Shown piece by piece: positions 3,237 through 51,934 of a stretch of DNA of 64,000 nt. The notes beneath the pieces were generated by a model that was given only the letters and a program-made list of their open reading frames with translations, was not told the origin of the DNA and did not search any database. The position numbers were made by a program, and so were the translations under genes. Every line of letters starts with the position of its first letter. The stretch's first letter is position 1. This DNA comes from Dehalococcoidia bacterium (GTDB taxonomy: Bacteria; Chloroflexota; Dehalococcoidia; Plut-88900). The DNA is taken from the NCBI GenBank assembly GCA_963668115.1, contig OY764147.1:2010061-2074060 (forward strand), given 5' to 3'.

Positions 3237-4031
3237 CTAGACCACGTCCCTGTACGCCGCCGACTGCCCGCCGTCTATCAGCAACGTCGCCCCGGTCACG
3301 AATGCCGACTCGTCGCTGGCGAAGTAAAGGGCGGCGTAGGCGACGTCCATGGGGTGGCCCATCCGATTCAGTGGCTGCTTGGTCTTGCGTTCGACGACGA
3401 TGTCGGGGTCGGTGAGTTTGTCCCAGGGGATGTCCACCATCTCCGTGGCTATGGGGCCGGGGTTGACCGCGTTGACCCGGATGTTGTCCGCGGCGTAGGC
3501 CAGAGCGGCCTTCTTGGTCATGGCCGTCACGCCGCCCTTGGATGCATGATAGGAGGACATGGACACCATGTCGGCCTGGACATCGTTTACGGAGGAGTTG
3601 TTGATTATCGACCCACCCCCGGCCTTGCGCATCTCAGGCGCCGCGTACTTGATTCCGAGAAACGTGCCCTTCAGGTTCACGTCGATGATTCGGTCCCAGA
3701 TATCCTCGGGCTCCTTGTCGGGATCTCCCTCTGCATGCTCGTTGATGCCGGCATTGTTGAACAGGACGTCCAGCTTGCCGTAGGCGGTGACCGCGGTGTC
3801 GACTACCCGCTTCACGTCCTCGGCCCGGGCCACGTCTGCCGTGACGAATGTAGCCTCCCCACCTCGCCCCTTTATCAGATCGACGATCTCCTGCCCCAAC
3901 TCCTCCCGTCGCCCGCACATCACCACCTTGGCCCCTTCCTTTGCAAACAGCTCCGCCGCCGCCCGACCCATCCCCGCCGTCGCCCCCGTAACAATCGCGG
4001 CCTTATCTTTGAGCCTCAAAAGTTCCTCCAA
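3237..4031 (-). CDS. SDR family oxidoreductase (tandem paralog B)
   Basis: Same motifs as 2429..3211. Roughly four-fifths identical to it by eye, including identical C-terminal ...MGHPMDVAYAALYFASDESAFVTGATL.IDGGQ.AAYRDVV. Confidence 0.9.
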   Translation of the reverse strand: MEELLRLKDKAAIVTGATAGMGRAAAELFAKEGAKVVMCGRREELGQEIVDLIKGRGGEATFVTADVARAEDVKRVVDTAVTAYGKLDVLFNNAGINEHAEGDPDKEPEDIWDRIIDVNLKGTFLGIKYAAPEMRKAGGGSIINNSSVNDVQADMVSMSSYHASKGGVTAMTKKAALAYAADNIRVNAVNPGPIATEMVDIPWDKLTDPDIVVERKTKQPLNRMGHPMDVAYAALYFASDESAFVTGATLLIDGGQSAAYRDVV

Positions 4032-6119: not shown

Positions 6120-6179
6120 AGGGCCCTCGACTCCGTGCAATGTAAGGAACTCGGTTGGCCTGCCGCAAATCCCGGCTAC

Positions 6180-8171
6180 CTACACCCCTCCCAGCCGGAT
6201 CGTCTGGTCGTACCGTGACCCCCGGGCCCCGACCGCATACCTCGTCTCCAGCCCCAGCACCCGGTATTTGGCCGAAGTGAGACCGACCGCCGGGTCGGTC
6301 ACCTCTATCACGTCGTAGAGCTCCTGGCCGGCGTTGACGGGCGCCGTGATGCTGCCCCGAGGGGTGTGGATCGCCATTCTCCGGGTCTCGGCCGAGGCGC
6401 GCGCGTCGGTCTTCTTACGGGTGTCGAGGCTGGCATCATGGATGTGGACCGGCCTGTCGAACAGCGCCGGAAAATCTGACCAGTCCGACAGATCGCTGGT
6501 ATGCCCCGACCCGAACACGATAGCCCGGCTGTGCCTCGGGACCGGGTCGTAATAGCGGCCCTCCCGGACCCCGTGTCCCGACCCGTATGTATAGGAGACC
6601 TTGTCGGTAGACGAGGGCGTGCGAAGTACAAAACCCCCGCTCGACGCTGTCAGCAGGACGTCCGGCACGTAGGCCATAAGCCGCTCTACTACTATGTCCA
6701 ACGGCTCGGACTCCTCAATTAGGAACTCGGGGCGGTGGTTGTCCAGCAGGTAGTTGGTTGACAGGCTTGCACACTCGTAACCGGCCCGGGCCAGAACATC
6801 CCTCAATATCTGGAAAACGGTGGCCTTGCCCGCGGCCCAGTTGCGCTCCCGACGCGCCTGCTGCCACCCCAGCAGCCCCCAGCCTCCGGTCGCGTGAACG
6901 ACCAGCGTCGATGCCCCTCCTTTCCGACAGTGCTCCAGACCCTCAATCCAGGTCGGCCCGACCGTCGATAGCTGCCTGCCATGCCCGGTCATGTACCCCA
7001 GCTTCACCCTCACCTCCGATCCCTTGGTCAGCAGCCCCAGGTCTCCCTCCCCCGGCCGCGAATAGCGCCCGTCGTCGTTGCGTAGCTCTATTTGCCACCC
7101 GGTAGCTCTCGTCGATTCCTTCCCGGTCACCGAGACAACGTCGTCGCTCAGGTCCAGAGGCGGGGAGCTCAGGGGCGCCGACCACACGCCGTTGGCGGTG
7201 GAGAGCCAGGCCTCGTCTGACGAATGCCCGAAGGCCATGCCGTAGGCGGAATCGAGGTCGAAGGCCGCCGGCTCCCGCCATAGGCCGTCCGAAAACGATG
7301 CCGAAGGCGTGCCAAAGGTGAAGAAGGGCCGGTTATACCCGCCCTTCCCCGATACCCGCTCCGTGAAGAAGAGCCTGTCCACGTCCGGCCGTTCCAGGGA
7401 GGGTGTACGGTATTCCGGGGTCTGGCCGGGCCTCGACTCCGTGACGGCCTTCAGCCCCGACCACGTATTCAACGTCTGCGCAGAACCCTCCCCGAACAAT
7501 GTGGTCCACACCCCGTTCCTGCTGTTCCCTGAGTCGCCACCCGTGACCGCGACGTTCCAGTCGCCGTTGAAGTGGACGGCCACCCCGTCGATGCGGGACA
7601 GGGAGTTGGTCCAGATGCGCGTTGACCCCCAGACGCCGGAGGTGCGCCGGATTGCGTAAAGGCCGTTTCCAATCACGTAGAGCAGAAGGACGGAGCCGTT
7701 AGGGTTGAAGGCCGCGGCCAGGGAGGTCACGGGAGACGACGCAGTGGTCACGGACGCGGGCTGCCCGAAGGTCGTGCCGCTATCGGAACTGCCCCTGACG
7801 TTAAGCGTCTTCCGGTTGGAGGACACCGAGAACAGCAGCACCTCCGACCCGTTCGAACACAGGGCCACCCCGGCGTCCCCGGAAACGGCGCCCAAGGAGA
7901 CCCAACGGGTGAAGTCGGATGTTGGCGAGGGTGTCGCAACCCGCTGGAAATAAAGGTTGTGGCCGTTTGATGGATCGACGCGGGCGCGCACCAGCGAACC
8001 GTCGGCGGGAATGACCAGCGCGTGAGGCCCCTCGGCCTCGGTGCCCGTATGGATGCGCCTGAACCGAAGGCGGGCTATCCCCGCCATCCGGTCCCGTACC
8101 TCCACCCCGACGCACGGCCGGGAGGAGGACGCCTTTTGGGCTTTCAGCAAGGCGTCGGTCAGTATCCGCAT
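6180..8171 (-). CDS. Phage-like structural protein: BNR/sialidase-like N-terminal half plus tail-hub-like C-terminal half
   Basis: 663 aa. Asp-box-like SSDSGTTF and repeated propeller-like segments in the N half. The C half (…YRVLGLETRYAVGARGSRYDQTIRLGGV) recalls phage tail/late-control-D-like proteins by eye only. Its start is 1 nt after the stop of the upstream gene. Confidence 0.45.
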   Translation of the reverse strand: MRILTDALLKAQKASSSRPCVGVEVRDRMAGIARLRFRRIHTGTEAEGPHALVIPADGSLVRARVDPSNGHNLYFQRVATPSPTSDFTRWVSLGAVSGDAGVALCSNGSEVLLFSVSSNRKTLNVRGSSDSGTTFGQPASVTTASSPVTSLAAAFNPNGSVLLLYVIGNGLYAIRRTSGVWGSTRIWTNSLSRIDGVAVHFNGDWNVAVTGGDSGNSRNGVWTTLFGEGSAQTLNTWSGLKAVTESRPGQTPEYRTPSLERPDVDRLFFTERVSGKGGYNRPFFTFGTPSASFSDGLWREPAAFDLDSAYGMAFGHSSDEAWLSTANGVWSAPLSSPPLDLSDDVVSVTGKESTRATGWQIELRNDDGRYSRPGEGDLGLLTKGSEVRVKLGYMTGHGRQLSTVGPTWIEGLEHCRKGGASTLVVHATGGWGLLGWQQARRERNWAAGKATVFQILRDVLARAGYECASLSTNYLLDNHRPEFLIEESEPLDIVVERLMAYVPDVLLTASSGGFVLRTPSSTDKVSYTYGSGHGVREGRYYDPVPRHSRAIVFGSGHTSDLSDWSDFPALFDRPVHIHDASLDTRKKTDARASAETRRMAIHTPRGSITAPVNAGQELYDVIEVTDPAVGLTSAKYRVLGLETRYAVGARGSRYDQTIRLGGV

Positions 8172-8172
8172 T

Positions 8173-8793
8173 CTAATGGCCCCCGACGCCGGTCGCCGGA
8201 CGGCGTAGCTGCCGAGCCCTCAGCCTGCCGCGGGGCCCGTGCCTCGCCAGCGCCCGGTGAAAGACGCTCAACCGCTCCCGACCCCACACCATGTAGTCCC
8301 GCCATACGCTGTCCCCTCCGGCGTTGAGCCGGTTTATGGTGAACCTCGACATGCTGAGCGCGGCATACCCCGACGCCCCCGCCACCAGTACGTCCTCCAG
8401 CGCTTCCGGCACGGTAGAGGCGGTGTAGTCCAGGGAATGGAGCTTGCCGTAGTAGACCGCTGCCTGCTCACCCTCGCCCGGGATCCGGTCCGTGAGCAAA
8501 GTCAGAGTATCTCCCCAGACCCGGAACCCGACGAATGCCGGCGGAGACTGGCCGGCCGGGTACTCGACGGAATCGACGAGCACCAGGCCGGCCAGGGAAG
8601 AGAGGGAGAGGTGCCGCGACCCCGCGGTGACGTTCAGGGTGGCCTTGCTCTCCAGGGGCGCGGCAAGGCTGAGCTCCCTGAGGGCGTGAGAGATGTGCCG
8701 GTCCAGCTCCGCGCTGGCCCAGCGGTATTCGCTGGAGTCCTCGTCGTGGAGGTCGGTGCGGACGCGCGCCCTGATATCGGTGAGTGTTGTCAT
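8173..8793 (-). CDS. Phage-like protein following the capsid gene (possible head-tail adaptor)
   Basis: 206 aa, MTTLTDIRARVRTDLHDEDSSEYRWASAELDRHI... The position directly after the major capsid gene and the N-terminal motif resemble conserved capsid-adjacent phage proteins. Function not established. Confidence 0.4.
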   Translation of the reverse strand: MTTLTDIRARVRTDLHDEDSSEYRWASAELDRHISHALRELSLAAPLESKATLNVTAGSRHLSLSSLAGLVLVDSVEYPAGQSPPAFVGFRVWGDTLTLLTDRIPGEGEQAAVYYGKLHSLDYTASTVPEALEDVLVAGASGYAALSMSRFTINRLNAGGDSVWRDYMVWGRERLSVFHRALARHGPRGRLRARQLRRPATGVGGH

Positions 8794-8826
8794 GGGTGCT
8801 CTCCCTTCCTGCTCCCGGTATCCGGG

Positions 8827-9717
8827 CTAGTTCCGTATTCCCGTGAGCTTGGCCAGCTTGACTGTGCTGAACAGGGCCACGGCCACGTACCACTTCACCC
8901 GGGTCCGGGTGGCATCCTTGGTCTCCAGGCTCCCGACCCGCTCCACCTGTAGGCCCGAGGGCCCCGTCAGCCCCGACACCCCCTCCTCTCCGAACTGCAC
9001 GGCGTGCACCGTCGAGCAGTCCCGGCTGGTCCCCGCCCTCTGGTCGTCGGCCACCCAGTCGCTGATGCCTATGGGGACGCCGTCGTAGAACTGGACCATC
9101 TGGCTGAGCATGTTGCGGTCGGTCTGGAGAAACCCGCTGCCGGAGTCTCGCACTAGGGAATTCATCTTGCGCCTGGTGCGGCGGCTCATGATCAGCATGT
9201 CGGGCTTGCCGGGCTTTACCTTGTCGATCAGCTCGTCCAGCTTGTCCAGGGTCAGGGTCGCTCCGTTGTCGCCCATGCTTACCGTCTGGCCGGCGGGGGT
9301 GAGCTTGTCGATCCCATCGAAGGCCTTGGAGTTGACCTCCGTATCGCCGTTGATGAAAGTGTCGTCGAACTTCTGCTGTACGGCCTTGGCCTTGAGCTCG
9401 ACGACGGCGGCTTCCAGGTCTTGGATGTTGCTGCGGGTCGCCGCCACGTAGTTGTCCACGTCGGCATCGCCGCCCAGGATCTTCAGGGTGGCGGTGACCT
9501 GGGTGAAGGTGGGCGTAGACTCGGCCCAGGCGTCTCCCACGTCGTAGAAGGCTACGGTCGGGGCGGCGTTCTCCCGGTTGTAGGTCAGGGAGTTCCCGAC
9601 TATTTCGATGAAGGGCAGGTGCTGGAGCACCGGGCTTTCGTTGACTATGGTCTCGATTACCCCGGACAGGAGCACGTCGTTGGACAGTTTTGCGGACTCG
9701 GTTAGCGTCAATGCCAT
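8827..9717 (-). CDS. HK97-fold-like phage major capsid protein
   Basis: 296 aa, MALTLTESAKLSNDVLLSGVIETIVNESPVLQHLPFIEIVGNSLTYNRE...LKILGGDADVDNY... I recognise this pattern from phage major capsid proteins that use a separate scaffold. Strong SD AAGGAG upstream. Confidence 0.7.
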   Translation of the reverse strand: MALTLTESAKLSNDVLLSGVIETIVNESPVLQHLPFIEIVGNSLTYNRENAAPTVAFYDVGDAWAESTPTFTQVTATLKILGGDADVDNYVAATRSNIQDLEAAVVELKAKAVQQKFDDTFINGDTEVNSKAFDGIDKLTPAGQTVSMGDNGATLTLDKLDELIDKVKPGKPDMLIMSRRTRRKMNSLVRDSGSGFLQTDRNMLSQMVQFYDGVPIGISDWVADDQRAGTSRDCSTVHAVQFGEEGVSGLTGPSGLQVERVGSLETKDATRTRVKWYVAVALFSTVKLAKLTGIRN

Positions 9718-9751
9718 TGTGTTTTTTCTCCTTGTTTGTCTTGCTTTATGG

Positions 9752-10180
9752 TTAGCTGTTGTTGATGGCGTAAAGGATCTTTTCCCTGGGGCTCAGGCCC
9801 GAGACGTCGGCCGGGCGTCTGACCGGCGCACCCGATGGCACCCGGGTCTCCGGTGACCGGGCCCCGATGCGGGACGCCACCTTCTCGACGATCTTCCTCG
9901 CCGATTCCACGGAGCGGTCCAGCTCCTCGATGGTGCTTCCCTGCACCAGCTCTTCCGGCAGCTCCGGCGCCCCGGCTATCAGGGCGCTGCGGTAGCGGTC
10001 CACGGCCAGTTCGACCTGCTGCTTGATCCCTCTGATCTCCGCGTCCTTCTCGGCAATCAGAAGGTTCAGGCGCTTTATCTCCGGCGACTCCTCCGGGGGT
10101 GATTCCTCGGGTATCGGGTCTTCAACGTAGTCCAATGACGACTCGGGGTCGGGGCCCTGGGATGTAGATTCTTCGGGCAC
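9752..10180 (-). CDS. Putative capsid scaffolding protein
   Basis: 142 aa. Acidic/Pro-rich N-terminus, central coiled-coil-like segment (IKRLNLLIAEKDAEIRGIKQQVELAVDRYRSAL). Lies directly upstream of the capsid gene. GTG start at 10180 preceded by AAGGAG. Confidence 0.5.
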   Translation of the reverse strand: MPEESTSQGPDPESSLDYVEDPIPEESPPEESPEIKRLNLLIAEKDAEIRGIKQQVELAVDRYRSALIAGAPELPEELVQGSTIEELDRSVESARKIVEKVASRIGARSPETRVPSGAPVRRPADVSGLSPREKILYAINNS

Positions 10181-10212
10181 AAACTTCTCCTTGAATGAAC
10201 GTATTTGCTAAC

Positions 10213-10240
10213 AGTATAAAAGTTCTGTGACAGATGTCAA
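10213..10240 (-). promoter_or_regulatory. Canonical sigma70-type promoter of the scaffold-capsid operon
   Basis: Minus strand: TTGACA (10240-10235), 16-nt spacer, TATACT (10218-10213), in a short AT-rich patch about 30 nt upstream of the GTG at 10180. Confidence 0.5.
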
Positions 10241-10261
10241 GAACAAAAGTAACATTATCCC

Positions 10262-10650
10262 TAAACTCCCACCCCCCCACTCACCCCTTCCCATTCCAAT
10301 GCCCCGCGAGGTAAAAGATGTCGAAGATGCGCCTAGGCGTGCGCCTATGGCGTGAATCTACAGCGCAAGCCCACCACTCACCCCCCTCATCCCCACCCAC
10401 CCAATGCCATGTCGTTCCGAACGGCAGTGAGGTCGAAGATGCGCCTCAGGCGTGAATCCGGGGAGGGGCGGTGCAGGTCTCGCAACTCACCTCGATATTC
10501 ACCATCCACCCCGCCCACCCCTCTCCCCCATCAGCCCCACCCACCTTACACCGTCATTCCTGCGGAGGCAGGAATCCATCCCTCCGAAACACTCACCTAC
10601 AACCCCGCCCACTCACGCCTCCCCCTCCAGCCCTTCTAAATTGGACATTT
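10262..10650. repeat. Cluster of mosaic intergenic hairpin repeats (GTCATTCC...GGAATCC family and GTCGAAGATGCGCCT module)
   Basis: Copies at about 10291-10358, 10411-10459 and 10551-10612. The same modules recur in at least 10 other intergenic gaps of this window. Confidence 0.85.
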
Positions 10651-11150
10651 GCACTATCTGAACCCTCGTGCTATACTACCCACCACGGCCACCGACCTCG
10701 TATGTCGGAACCCATCACAGGAAAGGAAAAGGAACAAGGACTCCCGTGAGCCGCACCGGCCTACATAGGCCCCGTCGCACCCGACCGGCATCCCAACGCC
10801 CGGCCCCCGACACGCGCCTCCTCCATTCACCCTTTCCACACCCCAACACCCACAACAAGCGCTGCCCAAAGGCCCAACGCCTAGACCTTCGCAGCGATCA
10901 ATCACTGCCCCGCCCCTCGAATGGAAGGTTCCCGGACAAATCACGGCACGCCCTATCGGAGGGCCGCCAAGTGAGCGCCCCACTCAAGCGGCGCAAGGGT
11001 TTCGCCCCCTCAGGCGACGCTACGGAGCACAGCGTCAAGCTCTTCCCCTGGGCCATAGCGCCCTTCTCGGACTCCCCCGGCGTATACCTCGCCGACCTGT
11101 CCGAGCAGTCGGATACGCTCCGACTCAAAACAATCGCACCATACATGGAC

Positions 11151-11468
11151 TCCACCGTCGTCACCATCGGCAAGCTCCGGTCTACGAACGCCGGTCACGG
11201 GTCTACGCTCCCATCCCCCAGGGTGGTAGAGCACTTCCGGTGGTCGAGACTGCCCCAGAGCGAGAATCTCTCGCGTCTCGTCCACGTCCTCTCGGGAGTA
11301 TGGGGCAAGGATTCCACCGTCGTCACACTCGGAGAACTTCCGACTACGAACGGCGGTCACGGGTCTACGCTCCCATCCCTCAGGGTGGTAGAGCACTTCC
11401 GGTGGTCGAGGCTGCCCCAGAGCGAGAATTTCTCGCGTCTCGTCCACGTCCCCTCGGAAGTATGGGGC
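11151..11468. repeat. Tandem duplication, 2 x 162 nt
   Basis: Unit 1 is 11151-11306 and unit 2 is 11313-11468, period 162 nt, about 90% identical by eye. Each unit contains nested hairpins CGAGAC[..GCGAGA-AUC-UCUCGC..]GUCUCG. Confidence 0.9.
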
Positions 11469-48661: not shown

Positions 48662-48736
48662 ATTCTCGCCCTCCCTGCCCGTTTGAATTGCCCCCCATTC
48701 TAGGTTTCCCAAAGCTCAGTGTCCAACCAAAGCGGT

Positions 48737-48823
48737 CACCCCCAATTCGAGGACCGACTGCGAATGAACTGTACGCAATACGTGTAAAACTTGGAAACGT
48801 CCACCCCCAATTCGAGGACCGAC
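48737..48823 (-). repeat. Two 22-nt direct repeats flanking a 43-nt AT-rich spacer, immediately 3' of tnpB
   Basis: Minus-strand GTCGGTCCTCGAATTGGGGGTG at 48823-48802 and 48758-48737. The spacer 48801-48759 is about 42% GC. Confidence 0.9.
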
Positions 48824-48832
48824 CGCAGGATT

Positions 48833-50362
48833 TCATTCCCCGGCCCTTCCTGAAAGAACGGAAAATTCCACCCCCGCACAGGGGTTTCCCCTCGCGGTTT
48901 CACCCTTTTCCCTGGAACGGGATCGCCCTCCCTTGGAGCGTGGTGTTCTCGGCGCTCCGGCCCTAACGGGCGCGGAAGTTTGTTTTGCGGCGCCAGCCGG
49001 CGTCGTTTCAGCCGGCCCGAGGGCCAGAAGCCCCCGGCGCAGTATGTTCCTGGCAGCGTTCACGTCCGCGTGGTCGCGGTGCCCGCACTCCACGCACCTG
49101 AACTCCGCTTGTTTCTTCCTGTTGTCCGGGCTGACCGATCCGCACCTGTTGCAGGCCTGGCTCGTGTGTCGGGGATCGACCCGCACAAACCGGATACCGG
49201 CCCTTTCAGCCTTGTACTCCAGCTGCGTCAGTGTCGCCCCCCAGCCCCGCTCCAGTATAGATCTGTTCAGCCTTCGCTTCGCCGAGACGTTCTTTCCGGG
49301 CGCCTCCTCCGTACCCCGCGCCGACCGTATCATGTTCGGTATATCCAGGTCCTCTACGGCTATGAAATCGTGACCGCTGTTGACAATCTCGTTGGTTATC
49401 CGGTGAATCCAGTTCCTCTGCGATAGCCGCTCCCTTTCGCAGACTCTCCCATATTCGGCGCGCGTCTTGGCGTAGTTGCGTCCCGCCCCCTCTGACCACA
49501 CCAGCTTCGCCTTCCCGCTGCCCGTCGGCCTGTAGTGCGCCCTCCCGTTACTGACCGCCGACTTCATTTGTCGGGCCATCCTCCGGCTCAACCGGCGTTT
49601 GCGCGCCTGAGTGCCGTCGTCCGTACGCGGGGGCGCGGGAATCTCCACTAGCCCGTCCGACGTTGCGATGGTGTTCGCCACCCCCACGTCAAGACCTACG
49701 GGCGATTTCGGCTCGCATGGCATCATCTCCAGTTGCCGGGGCTCCGCGGGTTGATGCTCGTATGCCATCGAAGCCATTACCCTTACCGGTGTCCGCGTTA
49801 TGCGGATGACCTTGGGCTGACCATCGGGGAGCGGGCGGCTCGGCGGTCGAAAGTGCAACGGCGGCAAACCCTTTATCTTGATTGCCCCGCCGCCCTTTTC
49901 ATTCAGCTTCAGATTGTTCCCATCCCCCGTGTATATGTCCAGCGTGCGGAACCGGTTGCGGGACTTGAATCGGGGCCGTCCGCCCCTCATTCCGTCCTGC
50001 TTCCGTTGCCGGAACCGCTTGTACGCTTCATTTGCCCTGTTCAGCGTGCCCGCGGACGTACCCGCATGCATCCGTCGGTCCTGGGCCTCATAGGCAGGGT
50101 CGTCCTCGCGGATGCCCGTCACCTCCCTCGCCTGCGAGGCCAAGGTCACCGCAGCTGGCACCGGAAACCGTCGCTCAACGAACTCCTCCGATGCGCCTCC
50201 GTTGATTGCCGCAAAGCGCAATGCCGCGTACTTCCCCGCCGCAAACCGCTCTTCCAGAGCCGCGTTGTACAGCCGCCTGTTTAGCTCCAACGCCTCGTCC
50301 AGCCGCCGGTGCCCCGCCCTGCTCAGCCGCAGCGTAACCTGCCTCGTGTCTCCCATGCCCAT
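48833..50362 (-). CDS. tnpB: TnpB (IS200/IS605-family OrfB, RuvC-like RNA-guided nuclease family)
   Basis: RPRFKS..., GLDVGV (RuvC-I Asp), FIAVEDLDI (RuvC-II Glu), HTSQACNRCG...FRCVECGHRDHADVNAARNI (zinc ribbon plus RuvC-III Asp). Start at ATG 50362 or 50356. The long basic C-terminal tail probably overlaps the omega-RNA region. Confidence 0.88.
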   Translation of the reverse strand: MGMGDTRQVTLRLSRAGHRRLDEALELNRRLYNAALEERFAAGKYAALRFAAINGGASEEFVERRFPVPAAVTLASQAREVTGIREDDPAYEAQDRRMHAGTSAGTLNRANEAYKRFRQRKQDGMRGGRPRFKSRNRFRTLDIYTGDGNNLKLNEKGGGAIKIKGLPPLHFRPPSRPLPDGQPKVIRITRTPVRVMASMAYEHQPAEPRQLEMMPCEPKSPVGLDVGVANTIATSDGLVEIPAPPRTDDGTQARKRRLSRRMARQMKSAVSNGRAHYRPTGSGKAKLVWSEGAGRNYAKTRAEYGRVCERERLSQRNWIHRITNEIVNSGHDFIAVEDLDIPNMIRSARGTEEAPGKNVSAKRRLNRSILERGWGATLTQLEYKAERAGIRFVRVDPRHTSQACNRCGSVSPDNRKKQAEFRCVECGHRDHADVNAARNILRRGLLALGPAETTPAGAAKQTSAPVRAGAPRTPRSKGGRSRSREKGETARGNPCAGVEFSVLSGRAGE

Positions 50363-50389
50363 GCAAAAATCATAGCACACCCCCAATCC

Positions 50390-50700
50390 TCTTCCCTCCT
50401 GTCATTCCGATGCCCCGCGAGGAATCTCAAGCGCAAGCCTACCGCCGCCCGTCCCTCCTGGCCACCCACTCTTTGCCGTCATTCCTGCGGAGGCAGGAAT
50501 CCATCCCTCCTGAACAACCACCTATATCCTAGCAATCCATCCCTTCCCCGGTGTGGGGATTCCGTTCGCCCTGAGTTTGTCGAAGGGTCGCTAGAACGGA
50601 ATGGGGGCGGCCCACGCCTCTCCAACCCCCCACCCCCCTAACCCGCCATTCCCGAGTAGTCGGGAATCCATCCCCGGCGGAGCAGGGTGGGGCGGCATCC
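50390..50700. repeat. Hairpin-repeat cluster
   Basis: GTCATTCCGATGCCCCGCGAGGAATC (about 50402-50428), the 50476-50545 element, ATTCCGTTC-N27-GAACGGAAT (50551-50610), CGCCATTCCCGAGTAGTCGGGAATCC (50644-50675). Confidence 0.85.
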
Positions 50701-50800: not shown

Positions 50801-51934
50801 ATGTATACACCCAAACATCACAACAATCCACTGTCAAAACACCGACGCCCCTCTCCCGGGGCGCCTGCTCAAGAGGCGGTTGGTCTCCCCATGCCCGACT
50901 CCCTCGCGGATGCCCGCGGTCGCAGACCGCGGAAGACTTCCCGTACCCAGGCTACCTACCAGGGTACGGATGCCTGCGGCACTGCGCCGCGGAAGAACCC
51001 CCGCTCCACCGTACCCGGTGTTGAAGCGGATGCCCGCGGCACTGCGCCGCGGATGACTTCCCGCTCCGCCTTACCGGGCGTTGTAGCGGATGCCCGCGGC
51101 ACTGCGCCGCGGAAGAATCCCCGCTCCACCGTACCCGGTGTTGCAGCGGATGCCTGCGGCATTGCGCCGCGGAAGACTCCCCGCCCCGTCGGGCGCGGTA
51201 GAAGGCCCAGGGGTCGCCGCCCCAACCGTCGCCGCTCCCTGTCCCACGTTCGCCCCTCCCTGCCCCGCCTGTCACCCGACAGTACCGGCATAGACGGCGA
51301 AATAGCCCTCCTCCGCTCCCTGACCAACCGCCTCTTGAGCACGCGCCCCCTCGACTACACCCAGGTAAACCGCTGCCTCCGACTCATCATCCGTGCCTTC
51401 TCCGCCCAGGCCAAGGCCCCCAAACAGCTCACCGACCAAGAACAGATCGACAACCTCATCAAAAAGGTCTTCCAGGACAACGTGAAGAATGGAGACTTGA
51501 ACTTCCGGGACCTCGTCCCCGTCCGCATGGCCCGGCCCGGCGACAAGTGGTGGCCATGGAGAATGCTCCTCCCCCTGAGGGACCGCTGGCGCTACGGCCT
51601 CATAGACCCCGACGAACCCTGGCCCCACGAAGAAAACGAAAAGCTCGCCGAGGCCCAGGAATTGGAAAGAATCGTCTCCGAAGCCTACCTCAAACTCGAC
51701 GAACTATTCCATGATGACGACCCCGATGACGAAGACGACGACTATGACCCAGACCCGGATGACGACGAGGACCCACCCCTATACGACCCGCCCTATGACG
51801 ATGACGACCCCTCCCCCGTAGGGGTGCCCCTCGTGGGTACCCTGACCGCCACCCGCGCCGATACCGGCCCGCCACCCGACTGGCCCGACCCCAACCCCCC
51901 GCCCCGCATCGCCCGAGGCCGCCCCCCTCCCTGA
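50801..51934 (+). CDS. Hypothetical protein: basic 20-aa tandem repeats, helical core, poly-acidic/Pro tail (N-terminal extent doubtful)
   Basis: The region 51290-51934 looks coding (…IALLRSLTNRLLSTRPLDYTQVNRCLRLIIRAF…DDDPDDEDDDYDPDPDDDEDPP…). The only canonical in-frame start is ATG 50801, which places the 5 x 60-nt repeat array inside the ORF. Confidence 0.4.
   Translation: MYTPKHHNNPLSKHRRPSPGAPAQEAVGLPMPDSLADARGRRPRKTSRTQATYQGTDACGTAPRKNPRSTVPGVEADARGTAPRMTSRSALPGVVADARGTAPRKNPRSTVPGVAADACGIAPRKTPRPVGRGRRPRGRRPNRRRSLSHVRPSLPRLSPDSTGIDGEIALLRSLTNRLLSTRPLDYTQVNRCLRLIIRAFSAQAKAPKQLTDQEQIDNLIKKVFQDNVKNGDLNFRDLVPVRMARPGDKWWPWRMLLPLRDRWRYGLIDPDEPWPHEENEKLAEAQELERIVSEAYLKLDELFHDDDPDDEDDDYDPDPDDDEDPPLYDPPYDDDDPSPVGVPLVGTLTATRADTGPPPDWPDPNPPPRIARGRPPP
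50906..51205 (+). repeat. Tandem array, 5 units of exactly 60 nt
   Basis: Units start at GCGGATGCC at 50906, 50966, 51026, 51086 and 51146. The first 35 nt or so are conserved (hairpin CCGCGGC-ACUGC-GCCGCGG). The last 25 nt or so vary but keep a hairpin. Confidence 0.9.

What the first reader, a model, noticed from the sequence alone, without database searches (positions are those of the whole stretch)
48737..48990. TnpB 3' flank with a duplicated 22-nt end motif around an AT-rich 43-nt spacer (mini-array-like)
Downstream of an apparently intact TnpB (all three RuvC acidic residues and the zinc ribbon present), the minus strand reads ...CUGCG-GTCGGTCCTCGAATTGGGGGTG-[43 nt, about 42% GC versus about 63% locally]-GTCGGTCCTCGAATTGGGGGTG-ACCGC... 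In TnpB elements the omega-RNA scaffold ends at the right IS end and the guide is whatever follows. A second identical end motif one guide-length away is a repeat-spacer-repeat layout. It could be a solo right-end remnant from nested insertion. It could also be the sort of intermediate proposed between TnpB omega-RNAs and type V CRISPR arrays. The core ATTGGGGGTG also occurs at the 5' flank of tnpB (50387-50378), and there is no tnpA in the window.
Basis: partly seen in the sequence, partly recalled or inferred. Interest (0 to 1): 0.62.

Follow-up and report, generated by a model that had tools for sequence, protein, structure and literature searches.

The report
Decayed mini CRISPR array behind TnpB-like nuclease
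The duplicated 22-base motif is the remains of a tiny three-repeat CRISPR array belonging to a transposon-derived (TnpB-like) RNA-guided nuclease, a known kind of miniature type V CRISPR system, here reduced to what looks like one usable guide.

Summary
GTCGGTCCTCGAATTGGGGGTG occurs twice, 43 nt apart, and nowhere else in the 3.0-Mb genome. It is not an insertion-sequence end. The gene is single-copy, and the genome has no Y1 TnpA and no Cas1. All 13 closest relatives fetched (36-76% identity) carry repeat-spacer units right after the gene: 12 have arrays of 2-28 repeats and one has a single repeat. None of 54 more distant TnpB loci with enough 3' flank does.

The true repeat is 31 nt (22-mer + GACGTTTCC) and the spacer is 34 nt. 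A third, diverged repeat (R0) lies upstream inside the ORF tail. The last repeat (R2) is degenerate or truncated where the locus meets ancestral DNA.

Covariation across 13 loci supports a tracr-like scaffold encoded in the ORF's 3' end. A hairpin loop forms a pseudoknot with the repeat tail, and an anti-repeat pairs with the repeat centre. Only R1 keeps the pseudoknot strand intact, so there is one credible guide. No target for it was found.

The protein folds like ISDra2 TnpB and has a disordered C-terminal tail over the scaffold, as in Cas12n.

Verdict: a new, decayed member of a known kind (TranC / type V-U / Cas12n-like). No RNA data were obtainable.

The parts
48833..50356 (-). Effector gene. 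It encodes a TnpB-like RNA-guided nuclease of 507 aa from ATG 50356 (alternative ATG at 50362; the mechanical ORF starts at TTG 50386). The stop is TGA 48835..48833. The folded part is residues 1-448 (50356..49013); residues 449-507 are predicted disordered.
   Evidence: Pfam OrfB_IS605 + Cas12f1-like_TNB. NCBIfam guided_TnpB is above its cut-off. The family start M(S)GDTRQVTL and invariant D/E/D and zinc-ribbon Cys come. AF2 gives pLDDT 85.3 with the tail below 50. Foldseek's best hit is ISDra2 TnpB, TM 0.76-0.80.
50368..50376 (-). Extended -10 promoter-like box TGCTATGAT, 5 nt before the first possible ATG (50362) and 11 nt before the family-consensus ATG (50356). A leaderless or near-leaderless mRNA is possible.
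   Evidence: Read directly. The same TGCTATGATTTTTGCATGG is conserved before the 76%-identical gene in L024. It was noted independently in earlier finding e1-4818971.
48934..49048 (-). Tracr-like scaffold RNA region, overlapping the part of the ORF that encodes the end of the fold and the disordered tail.
   Evidence: Nucleotide-level conservation in 5-8 relatives. RNAalifold predicts 45 pairs, 19 of them with compensatory changes.
48994..49018 (-). Pseudoknot hairpin GGGCCGGC-TGAAACGAC-GCCGGCTG. Its loop (49010..49002) carries GAAACG, complementary to the repeat tail CGTTTC.
   Evidence: The loop x tail helix is 91% paired over 13 loci, with compensatory changes at 4 of 7 pairs (one pair is seen as AU, GC, UA, CG and GU). 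0 of 500 shuffles reach it, and slid registers pair at 45% or less. An unbiased scan finds this site as the best or co-best partner.
48934..48943 (-). Anti-repeat CCACGCTCCA, directly after the conserved GAGAACA motif. It pairs with the repeat centre TTGGGGGTGG.
   Evidence: RNAalifold found this helix unprompted. In the fixed-frame count it is 83% paired, with 7 of 10 pairs showing compensatory changes.
48860..48888 (-). R0, a diverged first repeat (GAAACCCCTGTGCGGGGGTGGAATTTTCC) lying inside the ORF tail. It keeps 14 of the last 16 bases of R1, but its pseudoknot strand pairs at only 4 of 6 positions.
   Evidence: It aligns in register with the first repeat of every relative. The repeat finder family D2 is 88% identical. 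Its distance from the anti-repeat (66 nt) matches L024's first repeat (64 nt).
48824..48859 (-). S0, a 36-nt spacer-like segment between R0 and R1. It holds the stop codon of the ORF.
   Evidence: Its position follows. It has no other copy in the genome.
48793..48823 (-). R1, the intact 31-nt repeat GTCGGTCCTCGAATTGGGGGTGGACGTTTCC. The pseudoknot strand pairs at 6 of 6 positions and the anti-repeat at 8 of 10.
   Evidence: Its 5' GTCGG and 3' GTGGACGTTTC are identical to the repeat of the 76% relative L024.
48759..48792 (-). S1, the single credible spacer or guide: AAGTTTTACACGTATTGCGTACAGTTCATTCGCA (34 nt, 38% G+C).
   Evidence: It lies between R1 and R2. It is unique in the genome. No protospacer was found in phages, plasmids, IMG/VR or 400 genomes of the class.
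48730..48758 (-). R2, the terminal repeat. The first 22 nt (48758..48737) are identical to R1. The next 7 nt (ACCGCTT) are degenerate or foreign, and no intact pseudoknot strand remains.
   Evidence: Homology with same-genus genomes that lack the cassette starts at about 48729.
48697..48729 (-). Ancestral host DNA: the promoter (TGGACA-17-TAGAAT) of the downstream MOSC-domain gene. It marks the end of the cassette.
   Evidence: Conserved in G004, G006 and G008, which lack the cassette. Promoter scan; MOSC domain.
50378..50387 (-). 5'-flank copy of ATTGGGGGTG. This is a chance match inside a G-rich, repeat-laden upstream region and is not part of the system.
   Evidence: 10 copies in the genome against about 7 expected. 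The region 50500..50376 belongs to an interspersed repeat with about 50 copies.

Best explanation
The locus is a stand-alone, transposon-derived type V CRISPR module. It consists of a TnpB-like nuclease gene, a tracr-like scaffold RNA encoded in the gene's own 3' end, and a decayed three-unit CRISPR array (R0-S0-R1-S1-R2). Shown by comparison: the array association is a trait of the clade, and two long-range RNA helices link the scaffold to the repeat. In one, a hairpin loop forms a pseudoknot with the 6-7 nt repeat tail next to the guide. In the other, an anti-repeat pairs with the 10 nt before that tail. Inferred: the gene's transcript, or a transcript running through the array, yields the scaffold and a crRNA made of the 3' ~18 nt of R1 plus spacer S1. 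The two RNAs pair, the nuclease binds them as TnpB binds its omega-RNA, and the complex cuts double-stranded DNA that matches S1 next to a still unknown 5' PAM. That would give immunity against one AT-rich foreign element. Only R1 has a fully complementary pseudoknot strand; R0 has lost 2 of 6 pairs and R2 has lost its tail. The genome has no Cas1. The array is therefore frozen and shrinking, and the system now works, if at all, as a single-guide nuclease.
For: All 13 closest relatives fetched have repeat units starting within about 25-160 nt of the gene end. 12 carry arrays (L024 5 repeats, L025 13, L026 2, L030 10, L031 3-4, L111 3, L112 5, L113 4, L114 28, L115 13 or more, L116 2, L117 5) and L027 carries 1. 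None of 54 more distant TnpB loci with at least 400 nt of 3' flank has an array. All array loci fall in one clade with 100/97 support. Covariation: 16 of 24 pairs show compensatory changes, 84% of cells are paired against 45% or less in slid registers, and 0 of 500 shuffles reach this. The nearest array-less relative, L034, has the same parts fused into one omega-RNA: anti-repeat CCGCG, loop, CGCGG, tail ACGATTC, with the matching loop GAATCG. This topology is the pseudoknot solved in the ISDra2 omega-RNA (PMC10097598) and in the Cas12n sgRNA (PMC12216341). The catalytic D/E/D and the zinc ribbon are intact. The fold is closest to ISDra2 TnpB. The disordered tail, residues 449-507, is encoded exactly by the scaffold region. 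The gene is single-copy, with no TnpA and no Cas1. S1 is 38% G+C in a 60% genome.
Against: Expression, processing and RNA ends are therefore inferred. No protospacer was found for S1 or for 76 spacers of relatives, so the target class and PAM are unknown and an immune function is assumed by analogy. For 5 of the 13 loci I placed the anti-repeat using the motif plus complementarity, which inflates that helix's score somewhat. The array is tiny and partly decayed, so the locus could be non-functional. No Cas1 source was identified for the large arrays of relatives.
Confidence: 0.8

Rival explanations
1. The locus is a relic. Its identity is as above (a TnpB-derived CRISPR module), but it is no longer functional. 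The array collapsed after the loss of any spacer-acquisition machinery, and the remaining spacer and nuclease are drifting towards loss.
For: Only one of three repeats is intact. There is no Cas1 and no other array in the genome. The stop codon found in relative L024 is lost, so the ORF reads on through R0 and S0. The locus lies at a rearrangement breakpoint amid interspersed repeats. Eight other genomes of the genus lack the gene.
Against: The 507-aa ORF is open and all catalytic and zinc-binding residues are intact. R1's pseudoknot strand is perfectly complementary to the loop, and the promoter box is conserved with L024. R1 and R2 are 22/22 identical, which argues for recent homogenisation or selection.
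Confidence: 0.25
2. The 22-mers are two copies of an IS200/IS605-type transposon right end. R2 would be the true right end, whose omega-RNA reads into the flank as its guide. R1 plus the 43 nt would be a remnant carried along from an earlier insertion site or a nested insertion.
For: The foreign DNA ends within about 8 nt of R2, where a transposon right end would lie. The nearest array-less relatives (L032, L034) still have a single omega-RNA-type 3' end. In frame, the R2 tail could still form 4 Watson-Crick pairs and 1 G-U pair out of 6 with the loop (my reading).
Against: The element is single-copy in the genome, absent from 11 related genomes, and there is no TnpA. There is no clean empty site: the relatives' upstream gene lies 192 kb away. 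Relatives have arrays of up to 28 repeats with uniform 32-nt spacers, which serial insertion does not explain. R2 lacks one G of the anti-repeat pairing and has a central mismatch in the pseudoknot strand. A third repeat, R0, lies upstream at array spacing.
Confidence: 0.06
3. The array belongs to another CRISPR type, for example an orphan type I-E-like array with 29-nt repeats and 32-nt spacers, and merely happens to lie next to a TnpB gene.
For: The relatives' arrays have the 29/32-nt format that I recall as typical of type I-E. L113's repeat folds into a stable hairpin (z = -2.7).
Against: The adjacency is kept in 13 loci in unrelated gene neighbourhoods. The repeats co-vary with sequences inside the nuclease ORF. 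Most repeats do not self-fold. No Rfam CRISPR-DR family matches. No other cas genes lie near any locus.
Confidence: 0.02

Closest known systems
TranC (transposon-CRISPR intermediate) systems: Jin et al., Cell 2025, as cited in PMC13565253 and bioRxiv 10.64898/2026.03.27.714800
   Same: A TnpB-sized, TnpB-folded nuclease nested among ordinary TnpBs. A CRISPR array lies directly downstream and there are no other cas genes. The guide RNA is interpretable as an omega-RNA split into a tracr-like part and a repeat-derived part. The short arrays match the reported medians of 4-5 repeats.
   Different: Sequence and fold similarity to the one solved TranC (LaTranC) is weaker than to ISDra2 TnpB. The repeats are 28-31 nt against the reported 32-38 nt. 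I could not compare with the published clade representatives, so which TranC clade this is, if any, remains unknown.
Cas12n (type V-U4 / V-N; RdCas12n, PDB 9J09; PMC12216341)
   Same: A disordered, probably dispensable C-terminal tail whose coding DNA holds the tracrRNA. A pseudoknotted guide scaffold. A downstream array without adaptation genes. PADLOC's Cas12u4 profile is the best full-length match (179 bits).
   Different: The profile score against RdCas12n (183 bits, residues 130-510 only) merely ties with ISDra2 TnpB. No Cas12n structure appears among the 50 best fold matches, while TnpB leads. The hosts are Chloroflexota rather than Actinomycetota. The A-rich PAM could not be tested.
ISDra2 TnpB with its omega-RNA (PDB 8H1J/8EXA; PMC10097598)
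   Same: Best structural match (TM 0.76-0.80). The scaffold overlaps the 3' end of the gene. The pseudoknot forms between guide-adjacent bases and a distal 5' segment.
   Different: This locus is not in a transposon: there is no TnpA, it is single-copy, and it has no recognisable ends. The guide-adjacent segment is repeated and separated by spacers, rather than being followed by flanking DNA.
Type V-U candidate subtypes V-U6 to V-U45 (PMC10691335) and V-U2/C2c8
   Same: TnpB-like effectors with a downstream CRISPR array and no Cas1, Cas2 or Cas4. They are described as about 50 independent recruitments of TnpB.
   Different: The NCBIfam C2c8 model scores only 103 bits against a cut-off of 350. 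Assignment to a numbered V-U group was not possible with the data at hand.

Membership tests
CRISPR array | Direct repeats of constant length separated by unique spacers of similar length | tested here: met
   R0, R1 and R2 sit at a 67/65-nt period with unrelated 36- and 34-nt spacers. Relatives have 2-28 repeats at a 61-67-nt period.
Type V CRISPR-Cas (Cas12/TnpB-derived effector) | A single effector with a split RuvC domain and a TNB/zinc-ribbon insert next to the array | tested here: met
   Pfam, NCBIfam and PADLOC hits. D/E/D and CCCC are invariant. The fold matches TnpB and Cas12f.
TranC (transposon-CRISPR intermediate) | The protein is phylogenetically nested among TnpBs and keeps a TnpB-like architecture | tested here: met
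   Tree: the array clade sits inside array-less TnpB relatives, and its nearest neighbours L032-L034 lack arrays. The best fold match is ISDra2 TnpB.
TranC (transposon-CRISPR intermediate) | The guide is made of separate tracr-like and repeat-derived RNAs that together recreate the omega-RNA | tested here: inconclusive
   Covariation supports the scaffold-repeat pairings, and relative L034 shows the fused ancestral form.
TranC (transposon-CRISPR intermediate) | Membership of a published TranC clade | not testable with these tools
   Reference sequences of the clades are not available here. LaTranC is only a distant match (E = 3e-9; about 100 bits).
Cas12n (V-U4 / V-N) | A disordered C-terminal tail with the tracrRNA overlapping the ORF | tested here: met
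   pLDDT is below 50 for residues 449-507, which are encoded by 49012..48836. That stretch holds the pseudoknot hairpin and the anti-repeat.
Cas12n (V-U4 / V-N) | Sequence or structure membership, with REC/WED expanded relative to TnpB | tested here: inconclusive
   PADLOC's best hit is Cas12u4, but Cas12f is nearly equal. The PDB profile search ties with TnpB. No Cas12n appears in the top 50 Foldseek hits.
Cas12n (V-U4 / V-N) | A-rich 5'-AAN PAM | not testable with these tools
   No protospacer was found.
IS200/IS605-type TnpB insertion sequence | A mobile element: several copies, or a TnpA partner present in cis or in trans | tested here: not met
   One copy in the genome. No Y1 transposase in the genome. 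The neighbours are MOSC, UvrD and unknown proteins.
IS200/IS605-type TnpB insertion sequence | Defined ends with an empty site in related genomes | tested here: not met
   The right boundary is found at about 48729, but the relatives' upstream gene lies 192 kb away, so there is no simple empty site.
Type I-E CRISPR array | Palindromic hairpin repeat processed by Cas6e, with cas1, cas2, cas3 and Cascade genes present | tested here: not met
   Most repeats do not fold better than shuffles. There is no Rfam CRISPR-DR match, no Cas1 in this genome and no cas genes near any relative's locus.

The most novel reading that the evidence does not exclude
This Chloroflexota clade may be an independent, so far undescribed TnpB-to-CRISPR transition in which living relatives preserve every stage. 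L032 and L034 have a fused omega-RNA hairpin. Other relatives have a split anti-repeat and repeat with 1, 2, 3, 5, 13 and 28 repeats. The window's locus would then show the reverse path: an array collapsing back to a single-guide, omega-RNA-like state. In that state the degenerate terminal repeat abuts host DNA and could even supply a flank-derived, homing-type guide.
Probability: 0.3. Interest if true: 0.6.

Novelty: new member of a known kind. Interest (0 to 1): 0.42.

Why it matters
TnpB-derived miniature CRISPR effectors interest people for two reasons. They bear on how CRISPR systems arose from transposons, and they make compact genome editors. This locus adds a roughly 450-aa (structured part) TnpB-fold nuclease from uncultured Dehalococcoidia-type bacteria. 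Its guide-RNA architecture can be read from covariation alone: the pseudoknot loop, the anti-repeat and the repeat tail. Its relatives range from a single omega-RNA to a 28-repeat array. Together these form a natural series for testing the 'RNA splitting' model and for designing a single-guide RNA. The window's own copy is a minimal, decaying example. The kind of system is already described in the literature, so the finding refines knowledge rather than overturning it.

Tried and rejected
(1) I searched the genome for other copies of the element, to define an IS end. There are none; only the upstream REP-like repeat is multi-copy.

(2) An Rfam scan of the locus and of the relatives' arrays found no omega-RNA or CRISPR-DR family.

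(3) I looked for protospacers. S1 was searched against its own genome, phages, plasmids, IMG/VR seeds and 400 genomes of the class. 76 spacers from relatives were searched against phages, and four seeds against IMG/VR. Nothing turned up beyond 17-nt chance matches.

(4) I looked for a long classical anti-repeat elsewhere in each locus with RNAduplex. That gave only GC-rich noise with no positional consistency.

(5) An empty-site reconstruction from same-genus genomes defined the right boundary only. The left side is rearranged.

(6) I looked for a Cas1 source for the relatives' arrays. The only Cas1 found (G402) belongs to an unrelated system with a 1065-aa effector and 36-nt repeats. The records carrying the largest arrays are not held.

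(7) My impression that the repeats are type I-E-like could not be substantiated.

(9) The 5'-flank ATTGGGGGTG is rejected as a chance match.
Full report
**Observation**

On the minus strand, GTCGGTCCTCGAATTGGGGGTG lies at 48823..48802 and 48758..48737. With up to three mismatches allowed, these are the only two copies in the window; none is expected in shuffles. They are also the only two in the whole 3.0-Mb single-contig genome. The ORF upstream (48833..50386, minus strand) carries the OrfB_IS605 and Cas12f1-like TNB domains and passes the NCBIfam 'guided_TnpB' cut-off.

**Not an insertion sequence**

- A 1.85-kb query covering the gene and both flanks finds one full copy in the genome. The roughly 50 other hits all fall in the first 125 bases of the query (window 50500..50376), which is an interspersed REP-like repeat.
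- The protein has no homologue at E<=1e-20 in the 11 other genomes of the family, 8 of them from the same genus.
- No Y1 transposase exists in the genome.
- The neighbouring genes encode a MOSC-domain protein, UvrD and two unknown proteins.

**What the relatives show**

The closest homologue (P0003, 76% identity) is followed, 27 nt after its stop, by five 29-nt repeats GTCGGCCCCGTGCGCGTGTGGACGTTTCG with spacers of 32-38 nt. That repeat starts with GTCGG and ends with GTGGACGTTTC(G). In the window, the first 22-mer starts with GTCGG and is followed by GACGTTTCC. The true repeat is therefore 31 nt and the true spacer 34 nt (48792..48759).

Repeat units sit at the same place in every close relative fetched:

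| Locus | Repeats |
|---|---|
| L025 | 13 |
| L026 | 2 |
| L030 | 10 |
| L031 | 3-4 |
| L111 | 3 |
| L112 | 5 |
| L113 | 4 |
| L114 | 28 (27 spacers of 32 nt) |
| L115 | 13 or more |
| L116 | 2 |
| L117 | 5 |
| L027 | 1 (single repeat) |

None of 54 more distant TnpB loci with at least 400 nt of 3' flank has an array. In a maximum-likelihood tree of 72 proteins, all 14 array or solo-repeat loci lie in one clade with 100/97 support. That clade otherwise holds only three array-less loci, and a single origin is not excluded. No locus has other cas genes nearby.

**A third repeat**

I aligned the gene-end/array junction of five loci. The window's GAAACCCCTGTGCGGGGGTGGAATTTTCC (about 48888..48860) falls in register with the first repeat of each relative. 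It shares 14 of 16 bases with the 3' part of R1 (family D2). It also lies 66 nt from the anti-repeat, against 64 nt in L024. The array is therefore R0 - S0 (36 nt) - R1 - S1 (34 nt) - R2. In the window, the stop codon seen in L024 is lost, so the ORF runs on through R0 and S0.

**The far end**

Same-genus genomes without the cassette share the downstream DNA up to window ~48729. This is the promoter (T)GGTTGGACAC-N17-TAGAAT of the MOSC gene. Only 7 nt (ACCGCTT) separate the second 22-mer from ancestral DNA, so R2 is degenerate or truncated. In those relatives the gene upstream of this promoter lies 192 kb away in this genome. The cassette therefore borders a rearrangement and not a clean insertion site.

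**RNA architecture**

The DNA encoding the last ~60 residues is conserved at nucleotide level among the relatives. Comparative analysis finds three helices.

1. A hairpin at window 49018..48994, with compensatory changes in 5 of 7 pairs.
2. A pseudoknot between the hairpin loop (49010..49002, TGAAACGAC) and the repeat's last bases (CGTTTC). The two sides change together across loci: GAAACG/CGTTTC, GAACCAT/ATGGTTC, GAACCC/GGGTTC, GAATCG/CGATTC, GAAACT/AGTTTC and GACAGC/GCTGTC. The helix is 91% paired. One pair is seen as AU, GC, UA, CG and GU.
3. An anti-repeat at 48943..48934, just after a conserved GAGA(A)CA motif, pairing with the 10 repeat bases before the tail. It is 83% paired, with 7 of 10 pairs compensatory. 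RNAalifold found this helix unprompted.

Overall, 16 of 24 pairs show double changes, 0 of 500 shuffles reach the observed values, and slid registers give 45% pairing or less. An unbiased scan picked the same loop as the best or co-best partner of the tail.

Two caveats apply. The fixed-frame alignment is a concatenation that I built. For five loci I placed the anti-repeat using the motif plus complementarity.

The topology matches the solved ISDra2 omega-RNA, where guide-adjacent nucleotides pair with a distal 5' segment (PMC10097598). It also matches the Cas12n sgRNA (PMC12216341).

The nearest array-less relative, L034, has all these parts fused in one RNA: loop GAATCG; anti-repeat CCGCG, a 6-nt loop, CGCGG; tail ACGATTC; then AT-rich DNA. 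The array clade looks like that omega-RNA with the anti-repeat and repeat pulled apart (25-133 nt) and the repeat-plus-guide unit multiplied. This is the 'functional RNA splitting' route described for TranC systems (cited in PMC13565253 and bioRxiv 10.64898/2026.03.27.714800).

**State of the window's array**

| Repeat | Pseudoknot strand | Anti-repeat pairing |
|---|---|---|
| R1 | 6/6 | 8/10 |
| R0 | 4/6 | 7/10 |
| R2 | no intact strand | most of the segment kept |

S1 is thus the only credible guide. It is 38% G+C in a 60% genome. It has no second copy in the genome. It has no convincing match in phages, plasmids, IMG/VR or 400 genomes of the class. The genome has no Cas1 and no other CRISPR array, so the array cannot grow here.

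**The protein**

From the family start (ATG 50356) the protein is 507 aa. RuvC D/E/D and the CCCC zinc ribbon are invariant in the clade. AlphaFold2 with a 60-sequence alignment gives pLDDT 85.3 and pTM 0.78. Residues 449-507 are disordered; they are encoded by 49012..48836, which is the scaffold, R0 and S0.

- **Fold matches (Foldseek against the PDB):** ISDra2 TnpB ranks first (TM 0.76-0.80 on the target), then ISFba1 TnpB (0.69), Cas12f (~0.6) and LaTranC (0.60).
- **Sequence profiles:** they do not separate the candidates. PADLOC gives Cas12u4 (= Cas12n) 179 bits over the full length, Cas12f 174 and Cas12u2 138. The PDB profile search gives RdCas12n 183 bits against ISDra2 TnpB 183. NCBIfam C2c8 scores 103 bits against a cut-off of 350.
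- **Shared with Cas12n:** a disordered tail overlapping the tracrRNA is the published hallmark of Cas12n (PMC12216341).

**Classification and novelty**

The literature already holds about 50 independent TnpB-to-Cas12 recruitments, most with a downstream array and no adaptation genes (PMC10691335). It also describes the TranC intermediates. This locus fits that kind: it works like a TranC or Cas12n-type system. I cannot assign it to a named clade. It is a new, decayed member of a known kind.

**What remains inferred**

Expression, RNA processing, the target, the PAM and current activity are all inferred.

**Rivals**

- **Relic (about 0.25):** same identity, but the locus no longer functions.
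- **IS right-end duplicate (about 0.06):** R2 plus flank would act as an omega-RNA guide.
- **Chance neighbour (about 0.02):** an orphan array of another CRISPR type.

The 5'-flank ATTGGGGGTG is a chance match.

Noticed in passing
window 50376-50700 (and about 50 other places in the genome): An interspersed REP-like repeat of roughly 100 nt (GGATGGATTCCTGCCTCCGCAGGAATGAC...) fills the region upstream of the nuclease gene. A similar motif also lies upstream of the 76% relative in L024.
   Followed up: partly
window 50801-51934: A 377-aa ORF with no Pfam hit and internal 60-nt tandem units belongs to a multi-copy element. There are at least 8 copies at 77-89% identity in this genome and many more in the same-genus genomes. 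One copy also sits next to the displaced upstream gene 192 kb away, so recombination between copies may have caused the rearrangement.
   Followed up: partly
window ~48729 versus G000 2,251,049-2,252,380: A synteny break. In G004, G006 and G008 the MOSC gene's promoter is directly preceded by a gene ending ...GMGEG*. In this genome that gene lies 192 kb away.
   Followed up: partly
L025 4951-5072; L115 ~3470-3840: Spacers are duplicated within arrays of relatives: one spacer twice in L025, and a block of three spacers repeated in L115. These arrays also change by recombination, not only by spacer acquisition.
   Followed up: no
L027 2611-2991, L028 371-751, L112 2090-2470, L116 421-777: A PaREP1-family (HEPN-like) gene lies just upstream of the nuclease gene in several relatives, including one from a different subclade. 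An earlier follow-up (e1-4416820) judged such a neighbour to be accidental, but the recurrence may deserve another look.
   Followed up: no
L116 (23.8-kb contig, name suffix _c): A relative with a two-repeat mini-array sits beside an HTH_17/excisionase-like gene and a tyrosine integrase, so this family may sometimes travel on integrative elements.
   Followed up: no
L034 ~3830-3960: Downstream of the single omega-RNA of this array-less relative there is a fragment that looks like the N-terminal coding part of another TnpB gene (translating to ...KLKGLPLLRFKD...VEIRISRRP). It may be a remnant of a second copy.
   Followed up: no
L143 (G402:C149) 6171-11232: The genome carrying the single-repeat relative L027 also has an unrelated CRISPR locus. 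It has a 1065-aa effector ORF, cas1, cas2 and a 4-repeat array of 36-nt repeats (ATTTTAGCCGATGGGAGAACGGGGGCCAACCGCAAC).
   Followed up: partly
window 50356-50376: The extended -10 box TGCTATGAT ends 5 nt before the first possible ATG (50362) and 11 nt before the family-consensus ATG (50356). The nuclease mRNA may be leaderless. The same arrangement is conserved in L024.
   Followed up: partly
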